Shown: piece by piece, positions 14,745 to 58,746 of the stretch
Position numbering within the stretch: position 1 is the stretch's first letter
Layout of the letters: the number at the start of each line of letters is the position of its first letter
Assembly (NCBI RefSeq): GCF_026151205.1
Contig: NC_087080.1
Coordinates: 4,938,797-5,002,796, forward strand
DNA from: Bolinopsis microptera
Lineage: Eukaryota
Reading direction: 5' to 3'
Length of the DNA: 64,000 bases
Program-made: the position numbers and the translations under genes
Notes under the pieces: model-generated
What the model saw: the letters and a program-made list of their open reading frames with translations, nothing else
Database searches by the model: none
What the model was told of the DNA's origin: nothing

Positions 14745-15710
14745 GGATACTGGCCACTGTGCAGTACTGACTAGTGGCTAGTACTGGCTCCTTATACTAC
14801 TGGCTAGTACTGGCTCCTGATACTACTGGCTAGTACTGGCTCCTGATACTACTGGCTAGTACTGGCTCATCATACTACTACTGGCTAGTACTGGCTCCTG
14901 ATACTACTGGCTAGTACTGGCTCCTCATACTACTGGCTACTGGCTAGTACTGGCTCCTCATACTACTGACTAGTACTGGCTCCTGATACTACTGGCTAGT
15001 ACTGGCTCCTCATACTACTGGCTAGTACTGGCTCCTCATACTACTGGCTAGTACTGGCTCCTGATACTACTGGCTAGTACTGGCTCCTGATACTACTTGC
15101 TAGTACTGGCTCCTGATACTACTGGCTACTGGCTAGTACTGGCTCCTCATACTACTGACTAGTACTGGCTCCTGATACTACTGGCTAGTACTGGCTCCTC
15201 ATACTACTGGCTAGTACTGGCTCCTGATACTACTGGCTAGTACTGGCTCCTGATACTACTGGCTAGTACTGGCTCCTGATACTACTGGCTACTGGCTAGT
15301 ACTGGCTCCTCATACTACTGACTAGTACTGGCTCCTGATACTACTGGCTAGTACTGGCTCCTCATACTACTGGCTAGTACTGGCTCCTCATACTACTGGC
15401 TAGTACTGGCTCCTGCTAAAACTGGCTAGTACTGGCTCCTCATACTACTGGCTAGTACTGGCTCCTGCTAAAACTGGCTAGTACTGGCTCCTCATACTAC
15501 TGGCTAGTACTGGCTCCTGATACTACTGGCTAGTACTGGCTCCTGCTACTACTGGCTAGTACTGGCTCCTGATACTACTGGCTAGTACTGGCTCCTGATA
15601 CTACTGGCTAGTACTATACTGGCTCCTCATTCTACTGGCTAGTACTGGCTCCTGATACTACTGGCTAGTACTGGCTCCTGATACTACTGGCTAGTACTGG
15701 CTCCTGATAT
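14745..15710. repeat. 26-bp-unit tandem satellite, ~37 copies (consensus tactggctagtactggctcctgatac with ctgat/ctcat variants and a 9-bp insertion variant), intronic
   Basis: The direct tandem array is visible in the sequence. It has two alternating variant units and occasional ctggctact insertions. Confidence 0.9.
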
Positions 15711-33193: not shown

Positions 33194-35437
33194 ATGTACA
33201 ACAACAAGACTTCAAGGAGGGCGCCCAAGAAAACAAAGATCAACCAAATCTCGGAACCAATGGCCGGGAGAGATATAAATGTAATTATAATATATTATAT
33301 TAATATAATTAATGATTCTGATATTAAGTCTAAATTTTTTGATTCCTTTAAAAGTAATATTGATTGTAGAGTTTTAACTAATAATGCTATTTCTGAAAAT
33401 TCTGATATATTTGGTATATTGAGTAAATGTGCCGTCCAGGTGGTTGGTAAAGTGCCCCCGGGGAAGCCTCATCAGTACAGCGACGATCCAACTGTCGTTA
33501 AACTTTCAGCAGAGAGAAAGTCCCTTCAGCAAGAATGTAGTCTCACAGGGATAAGCGACAGGAGTGACCTCAGAAAAAGAATCAACCATCTCAAACGTAC
33601 CATCAAAAAGAGGTTGAAATCCATCAACGAGGCCACTGCTAACACCCTAGTAGATGTCATCAACAACACCGACAGCTGCAGAAGCATGTTTGAAGCAAAT
33701 AGAACTTTGGCCCAGTGTAGGATGAAGAAAGACGGAGTGACTGTCCACGATGCAGACGGGAACACCTTAGGTTCTGACTCATTAAAAGCAGAAGCTATTA
33801 AAGAATACTTTAATAATGAGTTCAATGACAAAGATGAACCCCACCTCCCAGCATTCATAGACCCTCCTGGAAGCCTCCTCTGTCCCATAACACCTGAAGA
33901 AGTTGGCCGTGCTGTTATGAAGCTGAAATCCGGTAGAGCGTGTGGCCCTGACGGTATACCTAATGAGCTAATGAAAGCTGCTGGATATCCCCTCCACTGT
34001 GAGTTGGCTAGGATCTATAATCTCTCCTTTGAGACCAACACATACATCCCAGCTATTGGAGAAGGTATCCTGACACCCCTTCAGAAGCCAGGAAAACCCC
34101 GAGGTCCGATAAAGTCTATCCGGCCCCTCACATTGCTAAATGGAACTAGAAAAGTCCTATCCCTCGTAGCCTTGAACAGAATCAATTACCACGTTGATAT
34201 GTACACTGGACCTTGGCAGGCGGCATACAAGCAGGGTCGCAGTTGTGCTGACCTGGTATGGTCTCAGAGAATGTTGACATCAGTGGTTACCAGGCGCGAG
34301 TTTGAGTATAGTAAAATCAACATCGACATGACCGCTGCGTTTAATACTATCCGCAGACAGACCATCATCAACCTCCTCATTGATGCAGGATGCTCTAGAG
34401 ACGACATTCGCCTAGTTCAGTACCTCCTCTCAAATACAAAGCTCAAGGTGACGGTCAACAGATCTGAGTCTGGTGAATTTGTGATTAATATTGGCGCTTA
34501 CCAGGGAGACAGTCTGGCAGGTAAAGTGTTTACATTGACCCTTGCCGGTGCCCTGAATCACATCAGAGCCGTGATCAGCGTCACGATTCCTAGACCGAAC
34601 CCCCCAGTCTCTGATAGAGGCCTCCCGTTAGAGTCCGCCTATGCTGACGATGCTGAGCTTCTGAGTGAAGATGGTCAGAGCCTGGTGAAGATACTAGAGA
34701 TTGCCAGTGATATACTGAAGGATTGGAGTCTCTTTGTTAACGAATCAAAGACGGTGTTTACAAGAGTGTATTTGGCAGATACAGATGCTTTAGATGCCCA
34801 TGGCAATAAAATTAGAGGAGATGAAGAGTGGCGAGAGTCAGTGCTATTAGGATCAAAGCTCTGCTCAGAAAGAGATATTGTCAACAGACGCAACAAAGCC
34901 AATGTTGCCTTCTACACCTACAAGAAAGTCTGGTTGAATAGTTCTGTTCAGATCAGTGAGAGTAGAAAGCTGAAGCTGTACGAAGCTCTTGTCACTTCAG
35001 TGTTGTTGTATAACTGTAGCAGCTGTGCTGCTCCTGAAACCGTAATGGCATCTGTCGACGTTCTTCAAAGGAAGCATCTGAGACAGATAATCAACACCTA
35101 TTGGCCTACGGTTATCAGTAACGAGAATTTATACAAGAGATGTAATGTCAGACCCCTTACTGAAAGGATCAAGAAAGCAAGATGGAAGATGCTTGGGCAC
35201 GTTCTCAGAAGCGGTGATGACACTCCCGCCTTCTTATCTTTCAGATTTGCATGTTTAGGATGTTTTGACTACAAAGGAAGGAGGGGCAGACCTCGTTCAA
35301 ATTTATTTGATTTATTATTAAAAGACATTATGACAAAACAAATTATTGTGATTGTAAATAAAAGATTTAGTTTAAGTAATTTCAACGATTTAGTGTACAA
35401 AGCTCATGATAGACGTCTTTGGAGAAGTTATGGGTGA
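33194..35437 (+). CDS. RTE-like LINE reverse transcriptase ORF (747 aa, no endonuclease domain, so 5'-truncated or decayed at the N-terminus)
   Basis: GPDGIPNELMKAAG, RPLTLLNGTRKVLSLVALNRI, IDMTAAFNTIRRQ, YADDAELLSED and the tail KLKLYEALVTSVLLYNCSSCA...ARWKMLGHVLRSGDD...GRRGRP. The N-terminal ~110 aa are low complexity. Confidence 0.7.
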   Translation: MYNNKTSRRAPKKTKINQISEPMAGRDINVIIIYYINIINDSDIKSKFFDSFKSNIDCRVLTNNAISENSDIFGILSKCAVQVVGKVPPGKPHQYSDDPTVVKLSAERKSLQQECSLTGISDRSDLRKRINHLKRTIKKRLKSINEATANTLVDVINNTDSCRSMFEANRTLAQCRMKKDGVTVHDADGNTLGSDSLKAEAIKEYFNNEFNDKDEPHLPAFIDPPGSLLCPITPEEVGRAVMKLKSGRACGPDGIPNELMKAAGYPLHCELARIYNLSFETNTYIPAIGEGILTPLQKPGKPRGPIKSIRPLTLLNGTRKVLSLVALNRINYHVDMYTGPWQAAYKQGRSCADLVWSQRMLTSVVTRREFEYSKINIDMTAAFNTIRRQTIINLLIDAGCSRDDIRLVQYLLSNTKLKVTVNRSESGEFVINIGAYQGDSLAGKVFTLTLAGALNHIRAVISVTIPRPNPPVSDRGLPLESAYADDAELLSEDGQSLVKILEIASDILKDWSLFVNESKTVFTRVYLADTDALDAHGNKIRGDEEWRESVLLGSKLCSERDIVNRRNKANVAFYTYKKVWLNSSVQISESRKLKLYEALVTSVLLYNCSSCAAPETVMASVDVLQRKHLRQIINTYWPTVISNENLYKRCNVRPLTERIKKARWKMLGHVLRSGDDTPAFLSFRFACLGCFDYKGRRGRPRSNLFDLLLKDIMTKQIIVIVNKRFSLSNFNDLVYKAHDRRLWRSYG

Positions 35438-36479: not shown

Positions 36480-37550
36480 CATGGCTGAATTTAGATTGTA
36501 ATTCACGCGTGCGATCAGTGAACATTACATCACGCGTGATATTGATAAACGACCACCACTAGTAACACTGTTGATTGACGATGTCAAATCCTTCGCAGCT
36601 CGGCGCGGCCCAGTAGTGCATCGCGCTACAAGTAACACTGCTAGCCGGTAACTTTTGCAGGGTTTGGCTTACCTGAGGACCCCAGGCTATTATGTTTATA
36701 AAGATTCGGCGGAATGACAGGCTGAGCGCCGCCCAGTAAGGTTTGGCTTTTTGTGTTATTATATTATTTACTTGCTGTCTGTTGTATTGGAACTCGAAAA
36801 TTTTAGCTTTGTAGCTTACTAACACGCGCGCTGAGTTCCTTCGCAACTTATCACGTCCATTTGCCATTGTTAATGGATTTACCCGGCGCGCGCTACTTAG
36901 ACTAAATTTAGACGAGTATCATTTAACATTTTGTAAGTTTATAACTTACCAAGCTAGACGTGAATACGAGCGCCGAGTTGGACGGTCGCGATTAGATTTT
37001 GACCGTTCTGTGTACATGCTTATAGTTATACGTTTTATTATATGAGTAAGCTGTGGTATTGTGAATGTAAGCTATACCAATGTATTTTACGCTGATTTCA
37101 AATAAGACCTTACTTGTCATACGTTGTAGACCTGCCGCGGACGAGTGCGCGGAGCTAGCTGTATCGTGGCTTTCGCCACGATACTACCACTTAGTGAAAC
37201 ACTGAAACGGCAAGCTCCTTGTTACCTGATCTTGAGGGGACGTATGACACCTCGTTAACCCAATCAATGTCTGGAAGGCTGCACATTTTCATATGCCAAA
37301 AACTTAAGATTCTCGTTGTGCGAGATGACGATAAATACTTACCATTAAAATCAAAATCAGCATTTACAAATGTTCACAGAACGGTCGAAATCTAATTGCA
37401 ACCGAGTTGGACTCGAGTATCACCCGTGAACCGTTAACTTAACGGGTGATACTCGTAAAATATCTGTTCCATATATTGGGACCGTCGACGAGTCCAACTC
37501 GGCGCGCGTCCTGGTAGGTTGTAAACCTACAAACCGTTAACTAAAATAGT
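36480..37550. repeat. Cluster 2 of the GC-rich modular repeats (shares modules with 19420-21210 and 55630-57810; internal inverted repeat 36960-37010 / 37375-37425)
   Basis: cgatgtcaaatccttcgcagctcggcgcggcccagtagtgcatcgcgc and ggaccccaggctattatg...cggcggaatgacaggctgagcgccgcccagtaa. Also gtcatacgttgtagacctgccgcggacgagtgcgcgg and cgtcgacgagtccaactcggcgcgcg (compare 56430-56470). Confidence 0.65.
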
Positions 37551-38454: not shown

Positions 38455-38588
38455 TCACCAGTGAAGATATTTTTCTACAATCAATCGGTTGATATATTCA
38501 ACGAGCTCCCCACATTCTATTGTGCCACTGTTGTCATCATCTATTGCTGCTAACAGATGCTTTAAATCTTCTTTAGTAGCTATCACAC
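38455..38588 (-). CDS. EF-hand calcium-binding protein, exon 2 (second EF hand, stop codon)
   Basis: Acceptor aactatgcag|GT. It encodes (G)VIATKEDLKHLLAAIDDDNSGTIECGELVEYINRLIVEKYLHW*. Phase is consistent with exon 1. The total protein is ~90 aa. Confidence 0.5.
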
Positions 38589-38729
38589 CTGCATAGTTGT
38601 ACAATATTTAAAAATACTACTGTAACATATACATGAATTAATCGATTATCCAATCATTGATGGATTTATAATAAAATATCTATTGCATAATAATATATTG
38701 CATAATGATGAAAATATAATCACTCTGAC

Positions 38730-38868
38730 CTAAATTGCTCATCATTTTAGCGAACTCGTCCAACTCCAGTGTTCCGCTTGCGTCATCGTCATACTTATCG
38801 AACAGTACGTAGAGTTCATCCACTTCCGCTTTGGTGAGTGCCGGAGCTCTAGATCTATGATCACCCAT
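38730..38868 (-). CDS. EF-hand calcium-binding protein, exon 1 (start codon, first EF hand)
   Basis: MGDHRSRAPALTKAEVDELYVLFDKYDDDASGTLELDEFAKMMSNL(G). It has the canonical 12-residue loop DKYDDDASGTLE, then donor G|GTCAGA. Confidence 0.5.
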
Positions 38869-39355
38869 TTTAATGCCTTAACTTTGTTTAGTTGTTAAAA
38901 GTTTTGTGATTTATAACGAGAACAGAACAAAACGAAGTGTAAGATTAAAATGGAGGTCGAGAACAGTAACAAAAGCCTAATCTATGTTATGCACATTAAA
39001 ATCCCGATTTACCTTGGGTAATTAATAAATAAAGTGAAGAAAGTTCAGCGAAAGAAGTAGAGACGAGGTGCTATGCACGATAGGCGAACACAGTCGTCAT
39101 GAAAATGTGAACTTGGGATGAAACCAGGACTGTTCGTGGATGAACTAAAAGTGAACTAGTTCTATAAGATGTGATGTACGGAAAACGATCGTGGTAAATC
39201 AGTGAAAGTCTGAGCTTGAAGTGAGTGATGATGCGACAAGTGACCTCAACTATACAAGATATATATGTACTTATAGTTATAGCCGAGGTATTTTGAGATA
39301 AGTAGAGGCGTACTTAGTACTTTAGTGAGACTAATCGACCAAATAGCTTGTGGTA

Positions 39356-40590
39356 AGTACTACTTACCACAAGCGATGTGGTCGATTTACGATTTGTCTA
39401 AAGCTTAACTAAAGTTAAACTAAGGACCTACCTTATCGGACGTTATTTGGCCGGAAATTGCGTGAACGTACATAATTCCAGCGTCCAATATAATGTCCGT
39501 TCAAATAAAGTCCGTTAAATTATTACTAATACTAGTACATTGCACAAAATCCAGGTTGAGTCAACCTGGATTTTGTCGAATACTACCACCTAGGCACCTA
39601 CAGGCCCCTTAGTTTTAAAGACATAAGTATTAGATCTCTTTTTCCTTTTCGACCATAAGTTTTGTCACCTCAATCAAGAAATCTGCTGAATTTCATGATT
39701 TCAATAACAAATAAATTCAGGTTTTGTTCTTTATTCCAGATAAATTTTTAACAGGAATAGTAAAAGAAGAAATGCAAACTCTAAGCATGTAGACAATGTA
39801 AATAAGCATATTTTATTTGTAGTGCTTAAAAAGGAGCATCACGAAATAAGCATCTTACTATTATGAAACTGGTCGGAGTTCGAGCCAAAATTCTTGGCAA
39901 AAAGAAGCCGAAAATTAATTATTTCCGCTCTTCTGTTTTCCTTGCGCTAGTCGCGAACTGTTTCATCTTGCAAGTACTTACCACAAGCGATGTGGTCGAT
40001 TTACGATTTGTCTAAAGCTTAACTAAAGTTAAACTAAGGACCTACCTTATCGGACGTTATTTGGCCGGAAATTGCGTGAACGTACATAATTCCAGCGTCC
40101 AATATAATGTCCGTTCAAATAAAGTCCGTTAAATTATTACTAATACTAGTACATTGCACAAAATCCAGGTTGAGTCAACCTGGATTTTGTCGAATACTAC
40201 CACCTAGGCACCTACAGGCCCCTTAGTTTTAAAGACATAAGTATTAGATCTCTTTTTCCTTTTCGACCATAAGTTTTGTCACCTCAATCAAGAAATCTGC
40301 TGAATTTCATGATTTCAATAACAAATAAATTCAGGTTTTGTTCTTTATTCCAGATAAATTTTTAACAGGAATAGTAAAAGAAGAAATGCAAACTCTAAGC
40401 ATGTAGACAATGTAAATAAGCATATTTTATTTGTAGTGCTTAAAAAGGAGCATCACGAAATAAGCATCTTACTATTATGAAACTGGTCGGAGTTCGAGCC
40501 AAAATTCTTGGCAAAAAGAAGCCGAAAATTAATTATTTCCGCTCTTCTGTTTTCCTTGCGCTAGTCGCGAACTGTTTCATCTTGCAAGAC
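39356..40590. repeat. Tandem duplication, 2 copies of ~613 bp, each with a 31-bp near-perfect palindrome (caaaatccaggttgagtcaacctggattttg); a palindromic junction lies at 39335-39380
   Basis: 39366-39968 is essentially identical to 39979-40588. At the left edge, cgaccaaatagcttgtggtaagtactacttaccacaagcgatgtggtcg forms an imperfect inverted repeat. Confidence 0.85.
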
Positions 40591-41494
40591 TAAAAAGGTA
40601 TCCTTACCATGGGCGCGGCCGGAAACGTTCATTTCAAAATTCAAACTACTGAAGATAATTATAAACAAATAATATATGTAAGTCTGTATGTAAATCTGAT
40701 TTACTTTGCACACCGTTTAACTGTCCAACTGCATCAATTCAAACGTAATCTATTCACAATTATCGTTAATTGGCCACAATTAATTCTCCCGAGGGTTGCG
40801 CGTGAATTCTGCGGAATAGTGACACAGGATAGAACCAGACTGATGAAAAAGACTACAGCTGGAGAGGAGTGGGCTAAGTGGTTTGAAACGTGGCCAAGTT
40901 GCGTCACCTGGCATGACCTAGCATGGACGGCCATAATCGGAGAAAATGTTCTGACGTTCAGCAGAAATGTTTCGGCGACCTCGAAGTGAGCGTTTATTTA
41001 TGAGGGAGACATTTTAGACAAATTTTAATAAAGCTATAAATATCATAGACATAACGTCACTACATACCTGGGTAGTTAATATGATCGTTAGCTCTAATGA
41101 TAGAATAATGGTCCTGTTAATTAACGACTAATGGCTGTTTAGCTGGCAAAATGGATTCCTTGACAATAGAGAAATGGCTCAGTTCACTTCACATAAGTCT
41201 GCGTGCTCGACAAACAGGACATTCTAGGAAAATATCTGATGCATTTCTCTTAAAAGGCTCATATCATTTCGCTCGCTCAAAAATTATCACGTGACTCTGG
41301 TTTTACGGTTTTGCAGCCGAATAAAATAGATTTACATAAGGACACGTTCATTTGAATTTGAGAGTATTGGTCAATATTAGTAACTCTATTAAAAGGCACG
41401 GTAAAGTTAACTTTGTCACAATATAAAACTATATAAACCATTCAACCCTTAATGGTTAGGATAATCGTTTTATCCTCTAGGCAAACTTTGTCAC

Positions 41495-44400
41495 ATAACA
41501 ATTTGAAAATGGGACAGAAGTTTGAAAATACAACTTTTCGTTTTGTTAACCTTTCTGCTGTGAGCCTCCTCCGACCGAGATCATACTTCCAGCACCTCAA
41601 TCGTGTCATATGCCATCTATAGTTGACCGACTAATTTGTTGCGGGTGACAAAATCAGTCAAAACTGTAAAATTTCGGTCCTGGAAATTTCATCTTCAAAA
41701 ACTGAAAATGGGACAGAGATTGGGACAATATGATTTTGCAATTTTATTCGGGATTTTGACTCCCAGTACCTCAATTTGGTTTCATACCATCACCAATTAA
41801 CAGATTAATTTGTATTTGGGCAAAAATTCCATCCAGTCTGTCAAATTTGTGTTCAGAAAATTTCATATTTGAAAATGGGACAGAAGTTTGAAAATACAAC
41901 TTTTCGTTTTGTTAACCTTTCTGCTTTGAACTTCCTCCGACCGAGATCAAACTTCCAGCACCTCAATCGTGTCATATGCCATCTATAGTTGACCGACTAA
42001 TTTGTTGCGGGTGAAAAAATCAGTCAAAACTGTAAAATTTCGGTCCTGGAAATTTCATCTTCAAAAACTGAAAATGGGACAGAGATTGGGACAATATGAT
42101 TTTGCAATTTTATTCGGGATTTTGACTCCCAGTACCTCAATTTGGTTTCATACCATCACCAATTAACAGACTAATTGGTATTTGGGCAAAAATTCCACCC
42201 AGTCTGTCAAATTTGTGTTCAGAAAATTTCATATTTTAAAATGGGACAGAAGTTTGAAAATACAACTTTTCGTTTTGTTAACCTTTCTGCTGTGAGCTTC
42301 CTCCGACCGAGATCAAACTTCCAGCACCTCAATCGTGTCATATGCCATCTATAGTTGACCGACTAATTGGTTGCGGGTAAAAAAATCAGTCAAAACTGTA
42401 AAATGTCGGTCCTGGAAACTTCATCTTTAAAAACTGAAAATGGGACAGAGATTGGGACAATATGATTTTGCAATTTTATTCGGGATTTTGACTCCCAGTA
42501 CCTCAATTTGGTTTCATACCATCACCAATTAACAGATTAATTGGTATTTGGGCAAAAATTCCACCCAGTCTGTCAAATTTGTGTTCAGAAAATTTCATAT
42601 TTGAAAATGGGACAGAAGTTTGAAAATACAACTTTTCGTTTTGTTAACCTTTCTGCTGTGAGCTTCCTCAGAACGAGATCAAACTTCCAGCACCTCAATC
42701 GTGCCATATGCCATCTATAGTTGACCGACTAATTTGTTGCGGGTGAAAAAATCAGTCAAAACTGTAAAATTTCGGTCCTGGAAATTTCATCTTCAAAAAC
42801 TGAAAATGGGACAGAGATTGGGACAATATGATTTTGCAATTTTATTCGGGATTTTGACTCCCAGTACCTCAATCTGGTTTCATACCATCACCAATTAACA
42901 GACTAATTGATATTTGTGCAAAAATTCCATCCAATCTGTCAAATTTGTGTTCAGAAAATTTCATATTTGAAAATGGGACAGAAGTTTGAAAATACAACTT
43001 TTCGTTTTGTTAACCTTTCTGCTGTGAGCTTCCTCCGATCGAGATCAAACTTCCAGCACCTCAATCGTGTCATATGCCATCTATAGTTGACCAACTAATT
43101 GGTTGTGGGTGAAAAAATCAGTCAAAACTGTACAATTTCGGTCCTGGAAATTTCATCTTCAAAAACTGAAAATGGGACAGAGATTGGGACAGTATGATTT
43201 TGCAATTTTAATCGAGATTTTGACTCCCAGTACCTCAATTTGGTTTCATACCATCACCAATTAACAGACTAATTGGTATTTGTGCAAAAATTCCATCCAA
43301 TCTGTCAAATTTATGTTCAGAAAATTTCATATTTTAAAATGGGACAGAAGTTTGAAAATACAACTTTTCGTTTTGTTAACCTTTCTGCTGTGAGCTTCCT
43401 CCGACCGAGATCAAACTTCCAGCACCTCAATCGTGTCATATGCCATCTATAGTTGACCGACTAATTTGTTGCAGGTGAAAAATCAGTCAAAACTGTAAAA
43501 TTTCGGTCCTGGAAATTTCATCTTCAAAAACTGAAAATGGGACAGTGATTGGGACAATATGATTTTGCAATTTTATTCGGGATTTTGACTCCCAGTACCT
43601 CAATTTGGTTTCATACCATCACCAATTAACTGACTAATTGGTATTTGGGCAAAAATTCCATCCAATCTGTCAAATTTATGTTCAGAAAATTTCATATTTG
43701 AAAATGGGACAGAAGTTTGAAAATACAACTTGTCGTTTTGTTAACCTTTCTGCTGTGAGCTTCCTCCGACCGAGATCAAACTTCCAGCAACTCAATCGTG
43801 TCATATGCCATCTATAGTTGACCGACTAATTGGTTGCGGGTAAAAAAATCAGTCAAAACTGTAAAATGTCGGTCCGGAAACTTCATCTTCAAAAACTGAA
43901 AATGGGACAGAGATTGGGACAATATGATTTTGCAATTTTATTCGGGATTTTGACTCCCAGTACCTCAATTTGGTTTCATACCATCACCAATTAACAGATT
44001 AATTGGTATTTGGGCAAAAATTCCACCCAGTCTGTCAAATTTGTGTTCAGAAAATTTCATATTTGAAAATGGGACAGAAGTTTGAAAATACAACTTTTCG
44101 TTTTGTTAACCTTTCTGCTGTGAGCTTCCTCAGAACGAGATCAAACTTCCAGCACCTCAATCGTGTCATATGCCATCTATAGTTGACCGACTAATTGGTT
44201 GCGGGTGAAAAAAATCAGTCAAAACTGTAAAATTTCGGTCCTGGAAATTTCATCTTCAAAAACTGAAAATGGGACAGAGATTGGGACAATATGATTTTGC
44301 AATTTTATTCGGGATTTTGACTCCCAGTACCTCAATTTGGTTTCATACCATCACCAATTAACAGACTAATTGGTATTTGTGCAAAAATTCCATCCAATCT

Positions 44401-47400
44401 GTCAAATTTGTGTTCAGAAAATTTCATATTTGAAAATGGGACAGAAGTTTGAAAATACAACTTTTCGTTTTGTTAACCTTTCTGCTGTGAGCTTCCTCCG
44501 ACCGAGATCAAACTTCCAGCACCTCAATCGTGTCATATGCCATCTATAGTTGACCAACTAATTGGTTGTGGGTGAAAAAATCAGTCAAAACTGTAAAATT
44601 TCGGTCCTGGAAATTTCATCTTCAAAAACTGAAAATGGGACAGAGATTGGGACAATATGATTTTGCAATTTTAATCGGGATTTTGACTCCCAGTACCTCA
44701 ATTTGGTTTCATACCATCACCAATTAACAGACTAATTGGTATTTGGGCAAAAATTCCATCCAATCTGTCAAATTTGTGTTCAGAAAATTTCATATTTGAA
44801 AATGGGACAGAAGTTTGAAAATACAACTTTTCGTTTTGTTAACCTTTCTGCTGTGAGCTTCCTCCGACCGAGATCAAACTTCCAGCACCTCAATCGTGTC
44901 ATATGCCATCTATAGTTGACCGACTAATTGGTTGTGGGTGAAAAATGAGTCAAAGCTGTAAAATTTTGGTCCTGGAAATTTCATCTTCAAAAACTGAAAA
45001 TGGGACAGAGATTGGGACAATATGATTTTGCAATTTTATTCGGGATTTTGACTCCCAGTACCTCAATTTGGTTTCATACCATCACCAATTAACAGACTAA
45101 TTGGTATTTGTGCAAAAATTCCATCCAATCTGTCAAATTTGTGTTCAGAAAATTTCATATTTGAAAATGGGACAGAAGTTTGAAAATACAACTTTTCGTT
45201 TTGTTAACCTTTCTGCTGTGAGCTTCCTCCGATCGAGATCAAACTTCCAGCACCTCAATCGTGTCATATGCCATCTATAGTTGACCGACTAATTGGTTGC
45301 GGGTGAAAAAATCAGTCAAAACTGTAAAATTTCGGTCCTGGAAATTTCATCTTCAAAAACTGAAAATGGGACAGAGATTGGGACAATATGATTTTGCAAT
45401 TTTATTCGGGATTTTGACTCCCAGTACCTCAATTTGGTTTCATACCATCACCAATTAACAGACTAATTGGTATTTGGGCAAAAATTCCATCCAGTCTGTC
45501 AAATTTGTGTTCAGAAAATTTCATATTTGAAAATGGGACAGAAGTTTGAAAATACAACTTTTCGTTTTGTTAACCTTTCTGCGGTGAGCTTCCTCCGACC
45601 GAGATCAAACTTCCAGCACCTCAATCGTGTCATATGCCATCTATAGTTGACCGACTAATTGGTTGCGGGTGAAAAAATCAGTCAAACTGTAAAATGTCGG
45701 TCCTGGAAACTTCATCTTCAAAAACTGAAAATGGGACAGAGATTGGGACAATATGATTTTGCAATTTTATTCGGGATTTTGACTCCCAGTACCTCAATTT
45801 GGTTTCATACCATCACCAATTAACAGATTAATTGGTATTTGGGCAAAAATTCCACCCAGTCTGTCAAATTTGTGTTCAGAAAATTTCATATTTGAAAATG
45901 GGACAGAAGTTTGAAAATACAACTTTTCGTTTTGTTAACCTTTCTGCTGTGAGCTTCCTCCGATCGAGATCAAACTTCCAGCACCTCAATCGTGTCATAT
46001 GCCATCTATAGTTGACCAACTAATTGGTTGTGGGTAAAAAAATCAGTCAAAACTGTAAAATTTCGGTCCTGGAAATTTGATCTTCAAAAACTGAAAATGG
46101 GACAGAGATTGGGACAATATGATTTTGCAATTTTATTCGGGATTTTGACTCCCAGTACCTCAATTTGGTTTCATACCATCACCAATTAACAGACTAATTG
46201 GTATTTGTGCAAAAATTCCATCCAATCTGTCAAATTTGTGTTCAGAAAATTTCATATTTGAAAATGGGACAGAAGTTTGAAAATACAACTTTTCGTTTTG
46301 TTAACCTTTCTGCTGTGAGCTTCCTCCGACCGAGATCAAACTTCCAGCACCTCAATCGTGTCATATGCCATCTATAGTTGACCAACTAATTGGTTGTGGG
46401 TGATAAAATCAGTCAAAACTGTAAAATTTCGGTCCTGGAAATTTCATCTTCAAAAACTGAAAATGGGACAGAGATTGGGACAATATGATTTTGCAATTTT
46501 AATCGGGATTTTGACTCCCAGTACCTCAATTTCGTTTCATACCATCACCAATTAACAGACTAATTGGTATTTGGGCAAAAATTCCATCCAATCTGTCAAA
46601 TTTGTGTTCAGAAAATTTCATATTAGGAAATGGGACAGAAGTTTGAAAATACAACTTTTCGTTTTGTTAACCTTTCTGCTGTGAGCTTCCTCCGATCGAG
46701 ATCAAACTTCCAGCACCTCAATCGTGTCATATGCCATCTATAGTTGACCAACTAATTGGTTGTGGGTAAAAAATCAGTCAAAACTGTAAAATTTCGGTCC
46801 TGGAAATTTCATCTTCAAAAACTGAAAATGGGACAGAGATTGGGACAATATGATTTTGCAATTTTATTCGGGATTTTGACTCCCAGTACCTCAATTTGGT
46901 TTCATACCATCACCAATTAACAGACTAATTGGTATTTGTGCAAAAATTCCATCCAATCTGTCAAATTTGTGTTCAGAAAATTTCATATTTGAAAATGGGA
47001 CAGAAGTTTGAAAATACAACTTTTCGTTTTGTTAACCTTTCTGCTGTGAGCTTCCTCCGATCGAGATCAAACTTCCAGCACCTCAATCGTGTCATATGCC
47101 ATCTATAGTTGACCAACTAATTGGTTGTGGGTGATAAAATCAGTCAAAACTGTAAAATTTCGGTCCTGGAAATTTGATCTTCAAAAACTGAAAATGGGAC
47201 AGAGATTGGGACAATATGATTTTGCAATTTTATTCGGGATTTTGACTCCCAGTACCTCAATTTGGTTTCATACCATCACCGATTAACAGATTAATTGGTA
47301 TTTGGGCAAAAATTCCATCCAGTCTGTCAAATTTGTGTTCAGAAAATTTCATATTTGAAAATGGGACAGAAGTTTGAAAATACAACTTTTCGTTTTGTTA

Positions 47401-50400
47401 ACCTTTCTGCGGTGAGCTTCCTCCGACCGAGATCAAACTTCCAGCACCTCAATCGTGTCATATGCCATCTATAGTTGACCGACTAATTGGTTGCGGGTGA
47501 AAAAATCAGTCAAACTGTAAAATGTCGGTCCTGGAAACTTCATCTTCAAAAACTGAAAATGGGACAGAGATTGGGACAATATGATTTTGCAATTTTATTC
47601 GGGATTTTGACTCCCAGTACCTCAATTTGGTTTCATACCATCACCAATTAACAGATTAATTGGTATTTGGGCAAAAATTCCACCCAGTCTGTCAAATTTG
47701 TGTTCAGAAAATTTCATATTTGAAAATGGGACAGAAGTTTGAAAATACAACTTTTCGTTTTGTTAACCTTTCTGCTGTGAGCTTCCTCCGATCGAGATCA
47801 AACTTCCAGCACCTCAATCGTGTCATATGCCATCTATAGTTGACCAACTAATTGGTTGTGGGTAAAAAAATCAGTCAAAACTGTAAAATTTCGGTCCTGG
47901 AAATTTGATCTTCAAAAACTGAAAATGGGACAGAGATTGGGACAATATGATTTTGCAATTTTATTCGGGATTTTGACTCCCAGTACCTCAATTTGGTTTC
48001 ATACCATCACCGATTAACAGATTAATTGGTATTTGGGCAAAAATTCCATCCAGTCTGTCAAATTTGTGTTCAGAAAATTTCATATTTGAAAATGGGACAG
48101 AAGTTTGAAAATACAACTTTTCGTTTTGTTAACCTTTCTGCTGTGAGCTTCCTCCGACCGAGATCAAACTTCCAGCACCTCAATCGTGCCATATGCCATC
48201 TATAGTTGACCGACTAATTTGTTGCGGGTGAAAAAATCAGTCAAAACTGTAAAATTTCGGTCCTGGAAATTTCATCTTCAAAAACTGAAAATGGGGCAGA
48301 GATTGGGACAATATGATTTTGCAATTTTAATCGGGATTTTGACTCCCAGTACCTCAATTTGGTTTCATACCATCACCAATTAACAGATTAATTGGTATTT
48401 GGGCAAAAATTCCACCCAGTCTGTCAAATTTGTGTTCAGAAAATTTCATATTTGAAAATGGGACAGAAGTTTGAAAATACAACTTTTCGTTTTGTTAACC
48501 TTTCTGCTGTGAGCTTCCTCCGATCGAGATCAAACTTCCAGCACCTCAATCGTGTCATATGCCATCTATAGTTGACCAACTAATTGGTTGTGGGTGAAAA
48601 AAATCAGTCAAAACTGTAAAATTTCGGTCCTGGAAATTTCATCTTCAAAAACTGAAAATGGGACAGAGATTGGGACAATATGATTTTGCAATTTTATTCG
48701 GGATTTTGACTCCCAGTACCTCAATTTGGTTTCATACCATCACCGATTAACAGATTAATTGGTATTTGGGCAAAAATTCCATCCAGTCTGTCAAATTTGT
48801 GTTCAGAAAATTTCATATTTGAAAATGGGACAGAAGTTTGAAAATACAACTTTTCGTTTTGTTAACTTTTCTGCGGTGAGCTTCCTCCGACCGAGATCAA
48901 ACTTCCAGCACCTCAATCGTGTCATATGCCATCTATAGTTGACCGACTAATTGGTTGCGGGTGAAAAATCAGTCAAAACTGTAAAATGTCGGTCCTGGAA
49001 ACTTCATCTTCAAAAACTGAAAATGGGACAGAGATTGGGACAATATGATTTTGCAATTTTATTCGGGATTTTGACTCCCAGTACCTCAATTTGGTTTCAT
49101 ACCATCACCAATTAACAGATTAATTGGTATTTGGGCAAAAATTCCACCCAGTCTGTCAAATTTGTGTTCAGAAAATTTCATATTTGAAAATGGGACAGAA
49201 GTTTGAAAATACAACTTTTCGTTTTGTTAACCTTTCTGCTGTGAGCTTCCTCAGAACGAGATCAAACTTCCAGCACCTCAATCGTGCCATATGCCATCTA
49301 TAGTTGACCGACTAATTTGTTGCGGGTGAAAAAATCAGTCAAAACTGTAAAATTTCGGTCCTGGAAATTTCATCTTCAAAAACTGAAAATGGGGCAGAGA
49401 TTGGGACAATATGATTTTGCAATTTTATTCGGGATTTTGACTCCCAGTACCTCAATTTGGTTTCATACCATCACCAATTAACAGACTAATTGGTATTTGT
49501 GCAAAAATTCCATCCAATCTGTCAAATTTGTGTTCAGAAAATTTCATATTTGAAAATGGGACAGAAGTTTGAAAATACAACTTTTCGTGTTGTTAACCTT
49601 TCTGCTGTGAGCTTCCTCCGACCGAGATCAAACTTCCAGCACCTCAATCGTGTCATATGCCATCTATAGTTGACCGACTAATTGGTTGCGGGTGAAAAAA
49701 TCAGTCAAAACTGTAAAATTTCGGTCCTGGAAACTTCATCTTCAAAAACTGAAAATGGGACAGAGATTGGGACAATATGATTTTGCAATTTTATTCGGGA
49801 TTTTGACTCCCAGTACCTCAATTTGGTTTCATACCATCACCAATTAACAGATTAATTGGTATTTGGGCAAAAATTCCTTCCAATCTGTCAAATTTGTGTT
49901 CAGAAAATTTCATATTTGAAAATGGGACAGAAGTTTGAAAATAAAACTTTTCGTTTTGTTAACCTTTCTGCTTTGAACTTCCTCCGACCGAGATCAAACT
50001 TCCAGCACCTCAATCGTGTCATATGCCATCTATAGTTGACCGACTAATTGGTTGCGGGTGAAAAAATCAGTCAAAACTGTAAAATTTCGGTCCTGGAAAT
50101 TTCATCTTCAAAAACTGAAAATGGGGCAGAGATTGGGACAATATGATTTTGCAATTTTATTCGGGATTTTGACTCCCAGTACCTCAATTTGGTTTCATAC
50201 CATCACCAATTAACAGATTAATTGGTATTTGGGCAAAAATTCCACCCAGTCTGTCAAATTTGTGTTCAGAAAATTTCATATTTGAAAATGGGACAGAAGT
50301 TTGAAAATACAACTTTTCGTTTTGTTAACCTTTCTGCTGTGAGCTTCCTCAGAACGAGATCAAACTTCCAGCACCTCAATCGTGCCATATGCCATCTATA

Positions 50401-50600
50401 GTTGACCGACTAATTTGTTGCGGGTGAAAAAATCAGTCAAAACTGTAAAATTTCGGTCCTGGAAATTTCATCTTCAAAAACTGAAAATGGGGCAAAGATT
50501 GGGACAATATGATTTTGCAATTTTATTCGGGATTTTGACTCCCAGTACCTCAATTTGGTTTCATACCATCACCAATTAACATACTAATTATATTCACTGT
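41495..50600. repeat. Higher-order satellite DNA, ~25 tandem copies of a 366-bp unit made of two diverged ~183-bp monomers (A/B dimer)
   Basis: The landmark gaaaatgggacagaagtttg recurs at 41505, 41871, 42237 and 42603 (period 366). Half-units A (gaaaatgggacagaagtttgaaaatacaac...) and B (gaaaatgggacagagattgggacaatatg...) share conserved blocks. Unit variants (ccgaccgag / ccgatcgag / cagaacgag; gtgtcat / gtgccat) indicate subfamilies. Confidence 0.95.
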
Positions 50601-51830
50601 ACTGTACTAATTGGTCGCTGGGCAAAAGTGCTTCCAATAGTGCGCGTGCGCGCTCGCCCGGTCTACGTAATCGAGTGCTGATATTACTGAAAAAAATGTG
50701 TGTCGCTCGCGGCCAGGACTAGAAGCATGTTCCAGACATATTCTTAGAAGAGCTGTATCGATATTGACTATTTATAGTAAGTACTAATTTTGTTGTTCTG
50801 CCGGCCTTGAAATATATCCGACTCTGCTGTCTTCTCTTTTAACAAGAAACTGTCCTCTATTTTAGTGTGAAAATACCCGACTATGTTGTTGTTCTGTTGT
50901 TGTTTTATCTAACACCATCGCGATTAGGGGCTAAAAAGTGATCACTTAACGTATGTGAACAACCCCTTACTCAATACTCACCCAATCAACATCGGCCACT
51001 AAATGATAATAATAAAAAAAATTGTACTACTTTTTAGTTTCAAAATTACAATGAAATTACTATTACATACTAATTGAGTATTATATCATACTTTTATATA
51101 CACCATTCCACAATCAAAAAAAGACTGGTAAAAATCAAACTATTAACTACGCTATAGTCTAAACATCCGATCCTAAAACGATATCAGAAAAGATAAAAGA
51201 TGAAAAATTGAAGTAATTTGCAACCCCCGAAAAGATTAAATGTTATGTTTTATCTAGAATTTAAATTCCCAGAAAACAGAAAAATTGAATTTCATGAATA
51301 CCTCAAAACTTTAGCTGTGGAAAATAAATGGACAATTTTGTATTTTAAAACTGAGTTCTGATAATATATCGTATATGATTATTTAATACATTGATTAGTG
51401 ACGAAGAAGTAGGAGCTTGGAAAGTGGCACACTTGGCTTTGTGAAATGTTTCCGTTTTAACTCAACCTGAAAACAATGAATATCGTTTAGTAAATCCTGT
51501 AATACATGTTGTACTTTATAAAGTACCTATATATACGATTATAACTTACTAAGTAATATCACGACTTAATACTTCAATTATTTAACTAATAACACCGAAG
51601 ATGATGTTAGATAAATAAGTTTAAGTTTGATTATTGTCCTAATTGCACTACAAGATATGGAAATTGTTGTATCATCCATCTGCAGAACATTATACTAGGA
51701 ATCAAAGAGTGCGATCAGTGAAAACAACGGCACTGCTACTAACACAAGTGCAGTTTTATAATAACTTTAACAGTGAAAACTTTTGATAATAAAGTGGCTG
51801 TTTAACTTCAGTGGATAATGGAATGAAGCT

Positions 51831-55629: not shown

Positions 55630-57810
55630 AGAAACGGGTTGTTTTGCCGCCTTCGGCGGTCACGCGCTACTGCAAGCGAGAGGGCTCTGATTAGAGCAAT
55701 CACGCGCACACTATCTTCCAATTAGCATCCGCACTTTTTCAGTGCCCAGTTAGTAAACTTTTGTCATACGTTGTATGACCCACCGCGTGCATGAGTGCGT
55801 GGCCCGGCGCCCCGTAGAATTAACGCTACAGGGGTAACGACAATGGGGTTTACGACGTGATATACAAGTAAACTTATAGCTATGTGAAGTTTTGTCATAC
55901 GTTGTATGACCCGCTGCGCACGAGTGCTCGGCTACACTGTATCGTAAAACATCTACAGTGAAACGACATTTGGGGTCACGACGTGATACAAACCTTGATA
56001 TGAGCCGCGCGTTCAGCATTGAACGCAGTAATTTTAATTAATATTTAAATTTCATATTCCAAGTGTTGATTGTTGTTAAAAATAAAATCTCCTGTCACTT
56101 TCACAATTTACAAAAAACAAACATAATATATGCAGGTACGCAGATAAATCCAAATTGCAAATGTTATTATTGTGATTGCACCAGCCCACATCAAATTTGT
56201 CATACGTTGTATGACCCGCCGTGCACGAGTGCGCGGCTCCCCCTGTATCGTCAGGACGATAAAGGTGAAACAACCGTGGGGGTCACAACGTGATACAACA
56301 TCAAATATGGGCGAAATTTTTATTTTAATCGATTTTATTTTCATCGTTCTGACTTTTGTATAGCATGTTTATTTGTTTTTGTTTACGAGTTTAACGGATG
56401 ATACTAATTATAAAATATTTGTTTCAAAGACCGTCGACGAGTCCAACTATGCGCGCGTTTTGGTAAGTTATAAACCTATAATTTGCAATTACGAGTAAGC
56501 TGTGGTATTAATTTGACGGATGTTACTCGTCTAAATTTCTTCGAAGTAGCGCGCGCCGCTTCCTTCTCGAAATGTTGCCCGATGGCAAGTGCTACGAAGT
56601 AGCGCGCGCCGGGCCAGATCATTAACAATGGTCAAGTATTAATTGACGATGTCAATTCATCGCAGCTTGGCGAGGCCAAGTAGCAAATCGCTTTTTCCTC
56701 ACAAACACTCGACATGAAAACAGATCTGTTCACCGTTTGTACATTTTAGTTCGATCTTCCGTCTATCTAATATTGAGAAAAGAAAATTTCGAATTTATTA
56801 CACAATCAATTATAAGGAAAACAAATTTTAGGAAAACAAATTTAAATTTTGGTATTTATTAGTAACAATCAAAACATATCATATCATAAAAATAAAGCCG
56901 CGCGTTGGTTGACTGCCTCAGTAAGGTGAATAATATAACATATAAGCTCGAAGGTGCCCTGTGCATTTACAGAAAGTCACGCGGCGATCACATGATCATG
57001 AGGACCTGTGAGCGCCAAATTTAATTTAAATTTTCTAGAAATCATACATCACTACAAGTTACTCATGCTTTTTTTAAATTTTTATAGGAGTGTAGATTGT
57101 CAGGTATTTCATTCATTCATACTTTGTCGGTTTAAAGCTGTATATTTAGAACTCACTATTGTTTAAACTATGAAAGCAGAACGTAGGTAATGGACAATAT
57201 ACCGACGACAATACCAAGGACCCGAGTGCCACAATGACTTTTCCGGATCCGTTTTTACCGAGGGCTTATCCACCAGTTACTCATGCTGCATGTATAGTCT
57301 GGTAATATTTATTCGTTTTATTCTATAGCAAGCATTCTGTAAATTGAAGTGTCGTATTTATTATAAAAGAGCCAGCCAACCTCCGCATTATAATCTTTTG
57401 TGTGCCAAGTTCGTTTGTAAAATCTTATCATATAATTGATTCACGATGTCAATCCTTCGCAGCTCGGTGAGGCACAGTGGTGCATCTCGCCGATCTACCG
57501 AAGGATTGATGCATAACAACAAGACACGCGCCAAAGACGCGCAGTTTACTGAGTGATGCCCACGATTTCTTTAAACACATTGATGTCATTATAATTTAGC
57601 GTGACCGGTGATAGTACGAGAATGGAAATGTGGTTGCGAGAAGCATTATTTGATGCGCGCGCGACCCAGTAGTGCATTGCGCTACAAATCATATAATAAA
57701 ATTGATCCAATTATATAAGATGAACGGTATATATCATAGCTCATCGTTACTGGGCCGCGCTCAGCCTGTCATTCCGCCAAATCTATATTAATGAACATAA
57801 TAGCCTGGGG
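55630..57810. repeat. Cluster 3 of GC-rich modular repeats, including 3 tandem-ish copies of a ~110-bp hairpin module (55768-55870, 55882-55990, 56196-56300) and the ~130-bp module at 56512-56640
   Basis: The module consensus is tgtcatacgttgtatgacccgccgcgcacgagtgcgcgg...tgtatcgt...gtgaaac...ggggtcacgacgtgatacaa. The start and end elements are palindromic. Copies are also present in clusters 1 and 2. Confidence 0.7.
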
Positions 57811-58746
57811 TCCTTAGGTAAAGCTCATCGTTATTAAAATCCGAATGGATGAATTAATCAAGTAATGTTCCCTTTCAACACAACTAAACAACAAACAAAT
57901 GCTTGCTCACCAGTGGTGACGCAATCGTAGGGGCATGCAGTTATTTCGGATAACTCTCACCCCGACGACGGCGTCGAAAAATAATCAAATTATGCATCTG
58001 CGCCATACTGGACACATTTTATATTTAATATTCTACAGTTTGTAGAAATTAGTGTTATCTACAGTATAGCTTAACTGGCGAGCAAGCATCGTTTCACTCG
58101 GCCGGGACGAAAATACCGAGTCCAATCACAGAAAGTTAACCATAAACTAAAGATAAATATAAGAGCTCGGACATCGACAAAAATCACACACTCCAGACGA
58201 CGGGGGAAGAGATAGCTGCTGGCTAAAGGAAAGAAAGCTGCTGGCTCAACAAATTTTGATAATTGTAAACAAATTTGTTCTTGTGCCCTATAATAATTTG
58301 GTATTGAGGTATGACCCTGTACTGTGCGTGATGGTGAAAGTGAAAGTGAATGTGAATCTATAATGCAAACGAAGTGAGTTGTGGCCAAACGATTCTTCAA
58401 TTTTAAAATAACAAAGTCGAAGGACTCTGTTTTAAAACACAAGCTCATTCTTATCGAAGTTTAATTCTGTCCATTCTAATTCTCCGTACCTGGACTGTAT
58501 CTTGAGTAGCTCACTTTTCAGTGTTACTTTAACTAAGTTTGTTGACTTAGTAAAGCTTATCAAACTGTCAATTTTTCGACAGTCGTTCCACATTTTTGTT
58601 GATTGATAAATGAAAGAGGAGGATGGGTTCGGGGTGATGAACTGGTCTGAACGTCTTTGTGATGGTGATCTGTGGAGTAAAGATAGGAGTGAGATTGGAG
58701 ATTCTAATCTGACAATTTTGAACAGTTCTAATAGACATGTGTATTT

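What the first reader, a model, noticed from the sequence alone, without database searches (positions are those of the whole stretch)
41495..50600. 9.1-kb higher-order satellite: 366-bp dimers of two diverged ~183-bp monomers
The A/B alternating structure, ~25 copies and unit subfamilies look like a centromeric or pericentromeric HOR array. The ~180-bp monomer length is close to nucleosomal spacing. The array lies right after a 613-bp tandem duplication and a GC-rich orphan ORF.
Basis: seen in the sequence. Interest (0 to 1): 0.6.

Follow-up and report, generated by a model that had tools for sequence, protein, structure and literature searches.

The report
Young dimeric satellite array, ctenophore genome
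A 9.1-kb non-coding block made of 25 near-identical copies of a 366-bp two-part unit sits between transposons in what is almost certainly a comb-jelly (Bolinopsis) genome. It is a recent local expansion of an older repeat that related species carry only as scattered one- or two-copy stubs, and nothing ties it to a centromere.

Summary
The array is real. It spans 41501-50589, with period 366 bp, 24.8 copies and 97% identity. Each unit is a strict A-B dimer, but the monomers are 199 bp and 167 bp, not about 183 bp each. A and B are clearly homologous (67% identity, z = 23).

The window is eukaryotic and transposon-rich, most likely Bolinopsis microptera: a LINE ORF is 99.7% identical to an annotated B. 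microptera protein, and a neighbouring EF-hand gene is closest to Mnemiopsis.

The array has no ORF above 59 aa, no Rfam or tRNA match, and no unusual fold.

Translated satellite pseudo-ORFs and a DNA pattern scan recovered 8 other loci from at least 7 public marine assemblies. All keep the same A-B alternation at 82-92% identity. All are only about 1-2.5 dimers long, with different truncation points and, in the three loci compared, unrelated flanks.

The window array is therefore best read as a young in-situ amplification (units 1.4-3.3% from consensus) of an old, dispersed dimeric satellite family. Irregular 4-5-dimer duplications are superimposed on it, and its right edge keeps an ancestral-state B remnant.

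A centromeric role is untested and not favoured. A transposon-borne origin found no support. This is an ordinary kind of feature in a phylum whose satellites are undescribed in the papers searched.

The parts
41501..50589 (.). Tandem array of 24.8 copies of a 366-bp A-B dimer (25 A monomers, 24 full B monomers plus one truncated B)
   Evidence: TRF. Alternating 199/167 spacing. Pairwise differences between dimers of 0-19 per 366 bp.
41506..41704 (+). First A monomer (199 bp), in the register starting at AAAATGGGACAG. Later A monomers start every ~366 bp.
   Evidence: The A consensus is conserved at 85-91% (full-length A copies) in loci L003-L005 and L007-L009.
41705..41871 (+). First B monomer (167 bp). 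It is 67% identical to A and lacks a ~26-bp block present in A.
   Evidence: The B consensus is conserved at 82-95% in loci L003-L009.
50594..50638 (+). Diverged B-monomer remnant at the right edge (B positions ~88-133). It follows a short unmatched stretch (50590-50593) after the last, truncated B, whose positions 88-106 it partly repeats. At 3 of 3 informative sites it carries the base seen in the relatives, not the base fixed in the array.
   Evidence: Local alignment score 24 against 8.7 +/- 1.5 for 2000 shuffles. Sequence read.
39361..40588 (.). Context only: a perfect 2 x 614-bp tandem duplication 0.9 kb to the left of the array, starting at the centre of a 55-bp palindrome (39333-39387). 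It is unrelated in sequence to the satellite.
38455..38868 (-). Context only: two exons (38868-38730 and 38588-38455) encoding the N-terminal EF-hand pair of a calmodulin-like protein. The array lies 2.6 kb upstream of its ATG.
   Evidence: Sequence and splice sites read. Pfam EF-hand_7 at E = 1.7e-14. Best named homologue is Mnemiopsis leidyi at 67% identity.

Best explanation
The array is a non-coding satellite (a macrosatellite-sized tandem array) in the nuclear genome of a lobate ctenophore, most likely Bolinopsis microptera.

Its repeat unit is an old two-part dimer: A of 199 bp and B of 167 bp. A and B descend from one ancestral monomer. The dimer was already fixed before this species split from at least one related species.

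In relatives the family survives as dispersed stubs of 1-2.5 dimers. At this locus one dimer variant of such a stub was amplified in place to about 25 copies, most likely by unequal crossing-over or replication slippage between out-of-register repeats. Later exchanges duplicated blocks of 2-3 neighbouring dimers at offsets of 4-5 dimers, which produced the unit subfamilies. The right-hand edge copy escaped homogenisation and kept ancestral bases.

Shown: the anatomy, the youth of the copies, the conservation of the dimer in other assemblies, and the absence of coding or structured-RNA signals.

Inferred: the amplification mechanism, and that the array has no demonstrated cellular function, centromeric or otherwise. 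The slower evolution of the positions shared by A and B hints at some constraint, such as a protein-binding block like AAAATGGGACAG. That is not demonstrated.
For: Array anatomy:
- Period 366, 24.8 copies, 97% identity.
- Strict 199/167 alternation.
- A/B homology at z = 23.

Youth and common origin of the copies:
- Every full dimer is 2-12 differences (0.5-3.3%) from the consensus. Mean pairwise difference is about 10 per 366 bp.
- The array consensus carries substitutions absent from every copy in other assemblies, for example TCACCAATTAACAG against TCATCAATTAACTG and CCAGTCTG against CCAATCTG.

Block duplications:
- Units 12 and 17 are identical, units 13 and 18 differ at 4 sites, and units 3-4 resemble units 7-8 and 21-22.
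- Lag-5 excess similarity has p = 0.0008 and lag-4 has p = 0.04.

Edge remnant: ancestral states at the right edge.

Old, dispersed family:
- 13 pseudo-ORF protein hits, all single-member clusters, and 2 DNA pattern hits.
- These led to loci L003-L010 from ERZ25073835, Ga0115560, UOYH01, ERZ1764477, ERZ23491292 and a Tara assembly.
- All have the A-B order at 82-95% identity, spanning 0.3-1 kb. Truncation points differ, and the flanks of L003-L005 are unrelated to each other and to the window's.

Non-coding:
- The longest ORF is 59 aa and none of the array ORFs is in the protein collection.
- No Rfam or tRNA hit.
- Fold z-scores are +0.14 (DNA) and -0.54 (RNA).

Organism:
- The LINE ORF is 99.7% and 98.7% identical to B. 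microptera XP_063684498 and XP_063688345.
- The EF-hand gene is 67% identical to a Mnemiopsis protein and 88% identical to an ENA fragment.

Rate heterogeneity: positions identical in A and B match across relatives at 93.5%, against 83.6% for the other positions. Fisher p = 7e-13, with the caveat that the copies are not independent.
Against: - I could not search the genome of the source species itself, so larger arrays of the same satellite elsewhere (including at centromeres) cannot be excluded.
- Five of the eight related loci (L006-L010) come from short metagenome contigs of 0.7-2 kb, mostly short-read assemblies, which cannot hold long arrays. Only the three ERZ25073835 contigs (7, 236 and 518 kb) could, and they show short arrays.
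- The pseudo-ORF search only finds copies that happen to have ORFs long enough to be called as genes.
- The left edge shows no significant degenerate remnant (p = 0.14), so the 'pre-existing stub' model rests on the right edge alone.
- The species of the related assemblies is unknown. If they were the same species, 'conserved across species' would become 'old paralogous copies'. The near absence of shared high-identity transposons argues for a different species.
- Array length could be mis-assembled.
Confidence: 0.7

Rival explanations
1. Centromeric or pericentromeric higher-order-repeat satellite. On this reading the dimer is the species' centromere repeat, and this 9-kb block is a centromere core or a pericentromeric outlier.
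For: - It has a dimeric HOR-like organisation, with 97% identity between dimers and 67% between monomers.
- Monomers are of nucleosomal size.
- The neighbourhood is transposon-dense and gene-poor.
- Motif blocks are conserved between A and B and across relatives.
- No paper on ctenophore centromeric DNA turned up, so nothing contradicts this reading.
Against: - The array is only 9.1 kb and is bounded on both sides inside the window.
- A probable gene start lies 2.6 kb away.
- In relatives only 1-2.5-dimer stubs were found, including within 236-kb and 518-kb contigs and near Copine/C2 exons.
- All satellite pseudo-ORF clusters have a single member, whereas the neighbouring LINE's cluster has 56 members, so the repeat does not look abundant.
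- There is no dyad-symmetry signal.
Confidence: 0.12
2. Internal tandem repeat of a mobile element, such as a Helitron/Helentron, a MITE or another non-autonomous transposon. The element would have spread the dimer around the genome, and the array would have expanded inside one copy.
For: - The family occurs as dispersed short arrays at many unrelated loci.
- Other elements are found in or beside them: a MITE with 27-bp terminal inverted repeats inside L004, and the same element end in both L005 and L009.
- A GC-rich near-palindrome lies just right of the window array.
Against: - The window array and all 8 related loci start and end at different positions within A or B, so there are no common termini.
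- The flanks of L003, L004, L005 and the window share no sequence apart from one unrelated ~80-bp interspersed fragment more than 0.7 kb away.
- The window flanks are unique within the window and absent from the loci fetched up to then, L001-L007.
- No terminal inverted repeat was reported around the array, and no target-site duplication was evident on reading the two junctions.
Confidence: 0.1
3. Functional cis-element array: repeated binding sites for a DNA-binding or architectural protein, or a source of repeat-derived small or long RNAs, acting on the neighbouring EF-hand gene or on local chromatin.
For: - Positions shared by A and B evolve more slowly across relatives: 93.5% match against 83.6%.
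- The block AAAATGGGACA is invariant at 9 of the 10 A or B monomer starts recovered from the relatives in that alignment.
- The array lies 2.6 kb upstream of a gene start.
Against: - No structured-RNA signal.
- The rate heterogeneity could come from A/B gene conversion or from mutational cold spots, and the copies are not independent.
- The relatives' loci have unrelated neighbours, so there is no conserved gene association.
- No expression or binding data are available.
Confidence: 0.06
4. Assembly artefact: a short array inflated by the assembler.
For: The perfect 614-bp duplication next door shows that exact local duplications exist in this assembly. No read data were available.
Against: The 25 dimers are not identical. 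They carry 51 variable columns arranged in nested subfamilies, which is expected of real diverged copies resolved by accurate long reads and not of a collapsed or looped graph.
Confidence: 0.02

Closest known systems
Dimeric alpha-satellite higher-order repeats of primates (A/B-type monomer dimers of ~340 bp)
   Same: Two diverged, roughly nucleosome-sized monomers alternate strictly. Dimers are homogenised to 97% or more, while the monomers inside them stay about 30% apart. Unit subfamilies arise from multi-unit unequal exchange.
   Different: Alpha-satellite arrays span hundreds of kilobases to megabases at every centromere and bind CENP-A and CENP-B. This array is 9.1 kb, bounded by unique sequence and next to a gene, and no chromatin data exist. 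There is no sequence relationship. (Properties of alpha satellite are from general knowledge, not tested here.)
Satellite families that also occur as dispersed short euchromatic arrays (for example the Drosophila 1.688/359-bp family, or the Tribolium Cast satellites)
   Same: The same repeat occurs as 1-5-unit stubs at many unrelated, gene-containing loci, with occasional longer arrays. Array ends are random. The unit is conserved across related species, as in the 'library' model.
   Different: For those families the large heterochromatic arrays and the regulatory or small-RNA roles are documented. Here neither a large array nor any activity is known, and the genome-wide copy number in the source species could not be measured. 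(Comparison from general knowledge.)
Macrosatellite/VNTR loci (single-locus arrays of units of 100 bp or more)
   Same: A single bounded intergenic array of a few dozen long units with high inter-unit identity, and probably variable in copy number.
   Different: Classical macrosatellites have kilobase-sized units and are usually locus-specific. This unit belongs to a dispersed multi-locus family.

Membership tests
Centromeric HOR satellite | Tandem monomers of roughly nucleosomal length, organised in a multimeric unit whose copies are far more alike than the monomers within it | tested here: met
   Monomers are 199 and 167 bp. Dimers are ~97% alike and A versus B is 67%.
Centromeric HOR satellite | Long homogeneous arrays (typically 100 kb or more) that occupy the centromere of most or all chromosomes | tested here: not met
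   At this locus the array is 9.1 kb with unique flanks on both sides. Relatives show only 0.3-1-kb stubs. Genome-wide distribution in the source species is not testable with these tools.
Centromeric HOR satellite | Association with CENP-A/CenH3 chromatin or the primary constriction | not testable with these tools
   No ChIP, FISH or chromosome coordinates were available. No literature on ctenophore centromeres was found.
Transposon-borne internal tandem repeats (Helitron/MITE-associated satellites) | Copies share flanking element sequence with defined termini (terminal inverted repeats or a hairpin end) and target-site duplications | tested here: not met
   The window array and the 8 related loci all have different truncation points. 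The flanks of L003-L005 and the window share no sequence. No terminal inverted repeat was reported around the window array and no target-site duplication was evident at the junctions.
Dispersed satellite DNA family ('library'-type satDNA) | The same repeat unit is present in tandem at several independent loci and in related taxa, with array-specific homogenised variants | tested here: met
   Loci L003-L010 come from at least 7 assemblies and carry the A-B order at 82-95% identity. The window array carries its own fixed substitutions.
Dispersed satellite DNA family ('library'-type satDNA) | Non-coding, with no transposition machinery and no structured-RNA family | tested here: met
   ORFs are 59 aa or shorter and absent from the protein collection. 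No Rfam or tRNA hit. Fold z-scores are close to 0.
Protein-coding tandem-repeat exon | An open reading frame maintained through the units (366 = 3 x 122) | tested here: not met
   Stop codons occur in all frames of every unit, and unit lengths vary between 365 and 367 bp.

The most novel reading that the evidence does not exclude
The A-B dimer may be a selectively maintained element of bolinopsid ctenophore genomes. It could be the still-unknown centromere repeat of these animals, or an array of binding sites for a lineage-specific DNA-binding protein. On that reading the conserved blocks shared by A and B (AAAATGGGACAG, ACTYCCAGYACCTCAAT, GACTAATTGGT) would be the recognition sites, and this locus would be a recently expanded instance.
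Probability: 0.1. Interest if true: 0.7.

Novelty: new member of a known kind. Interest (0 to 1): 0.3.

Why it matters
As it stands this is an ordinary satellite array. It matters mainly as annotation: the region should be masked as a tandem repeat and not mined for genes.

It has some added value because I found no description of ctenophore satellite DNA or centromeric DNA in the searchable literature. A dimeric repeat conserved between related comb jellies, with slow-evolving blocks shared by both monomers, is a concrete probe for FISH or CenH3 ChIP in Bolinopsis or Mnemiopsis. It is also a clean small example of how a dispersed repeat stub expands into an array.

Tried and rejected
Look-ups that found nothing:
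- Exact look-ups of window ORFs to find the same locus in another assembly all failed: 23235-25472, 33194-35437, 40609-40989 and the B. microptera protein P0137. I therefore could not obtain chromosome coordinates or a second assembly of the array.
- Exact look-up of nine satellite pseudo-ORF variants found none in the collection.
- The first metagenome scan, with the A-monomer 26-mer, gave 0 hits. The second, with a B-monomer 28-mer, gave 2. The viral-contig scan gave 0.
- Rfam and tRNA scans of the whole window were empty.

Analyses that gave no signal:
- DNA and RNA folding of the dimer showed no excess structure.
- There is no ~10-bp AA/TT phasing.
- The left flank tested as a degenerate B remnant is not significant, p = 0.14.
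- CpG columns are variable more often than other columns, but only marginally: 5 of 16 against 46 of 351, p = 0.056.

Literature:
- Searches for ctenophore satellites or centromeres, and for run ERR4352664, returned nothing relevant.
- The GC-rich loop-anchor motif of Mnemiopsis (PMC12221973) is not printed in the text, so it could not be compared with the GC-rich block to the right of the array.

Readings rejected:
- A coding repeat, because every frame contains stops.
- A structured RNA.
- A transposon with defined ends.


Full report

Yes. Tandem Repeats Finder reports a single array at 41501-50589 with period 366, 24.8 copies, 97% matches and no indels.

Using the motif AAAATGGG as an anchor, the spacing alternates 199, 167, 199, 167 and so on, without exception, through the array. 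The unit is therefore a strict A-B dimer.

The two consensus sequences are homologous. They match at 112 of 166 aligned columns (67%), and A carries an extra block of about 26 bp and another of 7 bp. The alignment score is 23 standard deviations above shuffled sequence.

Neither monomer occurs anywhere else in the 64-kb window, either by sensitive blastn or by an nhmmer profile built from the 25 dimers.

- A perfect 2 x 614-bp tandem duplication lies at 39361-40588.
- A 126-aa ORF lies at 40609-40989. It has no Pfam match and is not on record as a called gene.

**2. Where does the window come from?**

The window is eukaryotic, about 37% G+C and dense in retroelements. It contains several reverse-transcriptase and endonuclease ORFs and a hAT remnant.

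- The LINE ORF at 33194-35437 falls in a 90%-identity cluster that contains annotated Bolinopsis microptera proteins. It is 99.7% and 98.7% identical to XP_063684498 and XP_063688345 over 339 and 313 residues.
- A two-exon EF-hand gene on the minus strand (38868-38730 and 38588-38455) is 67% identical to a Mnemiopsis leidyi protein and 88% identical to an unnamed ENA fragment.

The source is therefore a lobate ctenophore, most likely B. microptera. The array lies in intergenic DNA 2.6 kb upstream of that gene's ATG. Only the N-terminal half of the gene is present in the window.

**3. What is the array made of?**

- It does not code. The longest ORFs are 53-59 aa, every frame has stops in every unit, and unit lengths vary between 365 and 367 bp.
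- Nine ORF variants are absent from the 15-billion-protein collection.
- There is no Rfam family, no tRNA, and no folding energy beyond shuffled controls as DNA (z = +0.14) or RNA (z = -0.54).
- There is no ~10-bp AA/TT phasing.

**4. Internal structure**

The 24 full dimers differ from their consensus at 2-12 positions (0.5-3.3%). Mean pairwise difference is about 10 per 366 bp.

Of 51 variable columns, 26 carry variants shared by two or more units. These define subfamilies such as {3,7,12,17,21}, {4,8,22,25}, {16,18,20} and {13,15}. Units 12 and 17 are identical, units 13 and 18 differ at 4 sites, and units 3-4 resemble units 7-8 and 21-22.

A permutation test shows excess similarity at a lag of 5 dimers (p = 0.0008) and, more weakly, at 4 dimers (p = 0.04). 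No other lag stands out. This is the footprint of a few multi-dimer unequal exchanges, not a regular higher-order repeat above the dimer.

CpG columns vary somewhat more often than other columns (5 of 16 against 46 of 351, p = 0.056), and four of the five changes are CpG transitions. That is a weak hint of methylation-driven decay.

**5. Edges**

The left boundary is sharp. The flank is not significantly B-like (p = 0.14).

At the right boundary the last B is truncated at about position 106. A few unmatched bases later comes a diverged B remnant at 50594-50638, with score 24 against 8.7 +/- 1.5 for shuffles. At the three sites where the array consensus differs from the relatives' consensus, this remnant carries the relatives' base. 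An edge copy that escaped homogenisation is what unequal-exchange models predict. It suggests that an older stub existed here before the expansion.

The flanks on both sides are unique within the window and absent from the related loci fetched up to that point, L001-L007.

**6. Relatives elsewhere**

DNA of eukaryotic assemblies cannot be searched directly with these tools. I therefore used the satellite's two short ORF translations as a protein query.

That search returned 13 proteins at 66-88% identity with E of 2e-7 or better, all from ENA assemblies and each a single-member cluster. Fetching their contigs, plus one DNA-pattern scan of metagenomes, gave eight loci from at least seven datasets:
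- L003, L004 and L005, from ERZ25073835 contigs of 518, 236 and 7 kb
- L006, from JGI Ga0115560
- L007, from UOYH01
- L008, from ERZ1764477
- L009, from ERZ23491292
- L010, from a Tara assembly

.

Every one carries the same A-B alternation at 82-95% identity to the window consensus, but only 1-2.5 dimers (0.3-1 kb). They start and end at different monomer positions. The flanks of L003-L005 are unrelated to each other and to the window's.

The long contigs show no larger array within 10 kb on either side. L004 lies about 6 kb from Copine/C2 exons.

These assemblies share almost no high-identity transposon sequence with the window, so they are probably a related but different species. The dimer therefore predates that split.

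The window array has its own fixed substitutions that none of the other copies show. That is consistent with amplification from one founder variant.

**7. Constraint?**

Positions that are identical between A and B also match across the relatives' copies more often: 93.5% against 83.6% (Fisher p = 7e-13). The copies are not independent, and A/B gene conversion or mutational cold spots could contribute. I treat this as a hint of constraint on blocks such as AAAATGGGACAG, ACTYCCAGYACCTCAAT and GACTAATTGGT, not as a demonstration.

**8. Interpretation**

The best-supported reading (confidence about 0.7) is a young, in-situ tandem amplification of an old, dispersed dimeric satellite family. The amplification arose by unequal exchange or slippage, and no function has been demonstrated.

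*Centromeric or pericentromeric HOR (about 0.12).* The dimeric organisation fits. The small bounded size, the nearby gene, the short stubs in relatives and the apparent low abundance do not. On abundance, the satellite clusters are single-member, while the adjacent LINE's cluster has 56 members. The reading cannot be excluded, because the source genome could not be searched and no paper on ctenophore centromeric DNA was found.

*Transposon-borne origin (about 0.1).* This found no support. There are no common termini or shared flanks, no terminal inverted repeat was reported around the array, and no target-site duplication was evident at the junctions.

*Regulatory or binding-site array (about 0.06).* This rests only on the rate heterogeneity and the position upstream of a gene.

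*Assembly artefact (about 0.02).* This is unlikely given the nested variant structure.

**9. Comparison with known systems**

In architecture the array behaves like dimeric alpha-satellite HORs. In genomic distribution it resembles satellite families with dispersed euchromatic stubs, such as Drosophila 1.688 or the Tribolium Cast satellites. These comparisons come from general knowledge.

It meets the defining features of a dispersed satellite DNA family. It fails the tested features of a centromeric array (size), a transposon component (termini and flanks) and a coding repeat (open frame).

**10. Verdict**

The 'satellite with dimeric higher-order unit' reading is right. The centromere reading is unsupported.

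This is a new member of a known kind, of modest interest (0.3). The interest is raised slightly because ctenophore satellites and centromeres are undescribed in the searchable literature and the dimer is conserved between species.

Noticed in passing
window 26217-27880 (+), upstream of 28838-31814: Two consecutive ORFs, the second with an AlkB-like 2OG-Fe(II) oxygenase domain (PF13532, E = 2.4e-16) followed by a GDSL/SGNH-like stretch. They sit directly upstream of an intact LINE endonuclease and reverse-transcriptase ORF pair. This may be a LINE ORF1 carrying an AlkB domain, which would be unusual.
   Followed up: partly
window 39333-40588: A 100%-identical 2 x 614-bp tandem duplication whose first copy starts exactly at the centre of a 55-bp palindrome (39333-39387). 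It is either a very recent palindrome-associated duplication or an assembly artefact.
   Followed up: partly
window 38455-38868 (-): An EF-hand (calmodulin-like) gene of which only the N-terminal two EF-hands are found. The C-terminal half of the 154-aa Mnemiopsis homologue has no counterpart in the window, so the gene may be truncated or interrupted by transposons.
   Followed up: partly
window 14770-15709: A 26-bp minisatellite of 35 copies at 88% identity (ACTACTGGCTAGTACTGGCTCCTGAT), unrelated to the 366-bp array.
   Followed up: no
window 23235-25472 (-): An intact 745-aa ORF with an RT-like YVDD motif but no Pfam hit at E of 0.01 or below. It is not on record as a called protein and may be a divergent retroelement polymerase.
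   Followed up: no
window 50640-50662: A GC- and CpG-rich near-palindromic block (GTGCGCGTGCGCGCTCGCCCGG) immediately after the array's degenerate edge. It could not be compared with the GC-rich CTEP1/2 loop-anchor motif reported for Mnemiopsis, because the paper's text does not print that motif.
   Followed up: partly
L004 ~10515-10885; L005 from 5696; L009 from 1316: Other mobile elements are inserted into the satellite stubs of relatives. L004 has a ~370-bp MITE with 27-bp terminal inverted repeats (GGCGCGGTTTATATCTCCGCCAAAAGC). L005 and L009 both have the same element end (TGRGGTCGTTCACAT) inside B monomers at different positions, which may indicate a target preference.
   Followed up: no
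L008 1500-2026: Telomere-like (CCCTAA)n tracts, interspersed with a GCCGGCTTATAGCCGG-type repeat and a ~200-bp tandem repeat, lie about 0.7 kb from the satellite stub. That copy may be subtelomeric.
   Followed up: no
window 20684-20774, 36670-36739, 57747-57821; L004 11737-11844; L005 6910-6991: A short (~80-100 bp) interspersed repeat shared at 77-85% identity between the window and the related assemblies. It is probably a SINE or MITE fragment common to both species.
   Followed up: no
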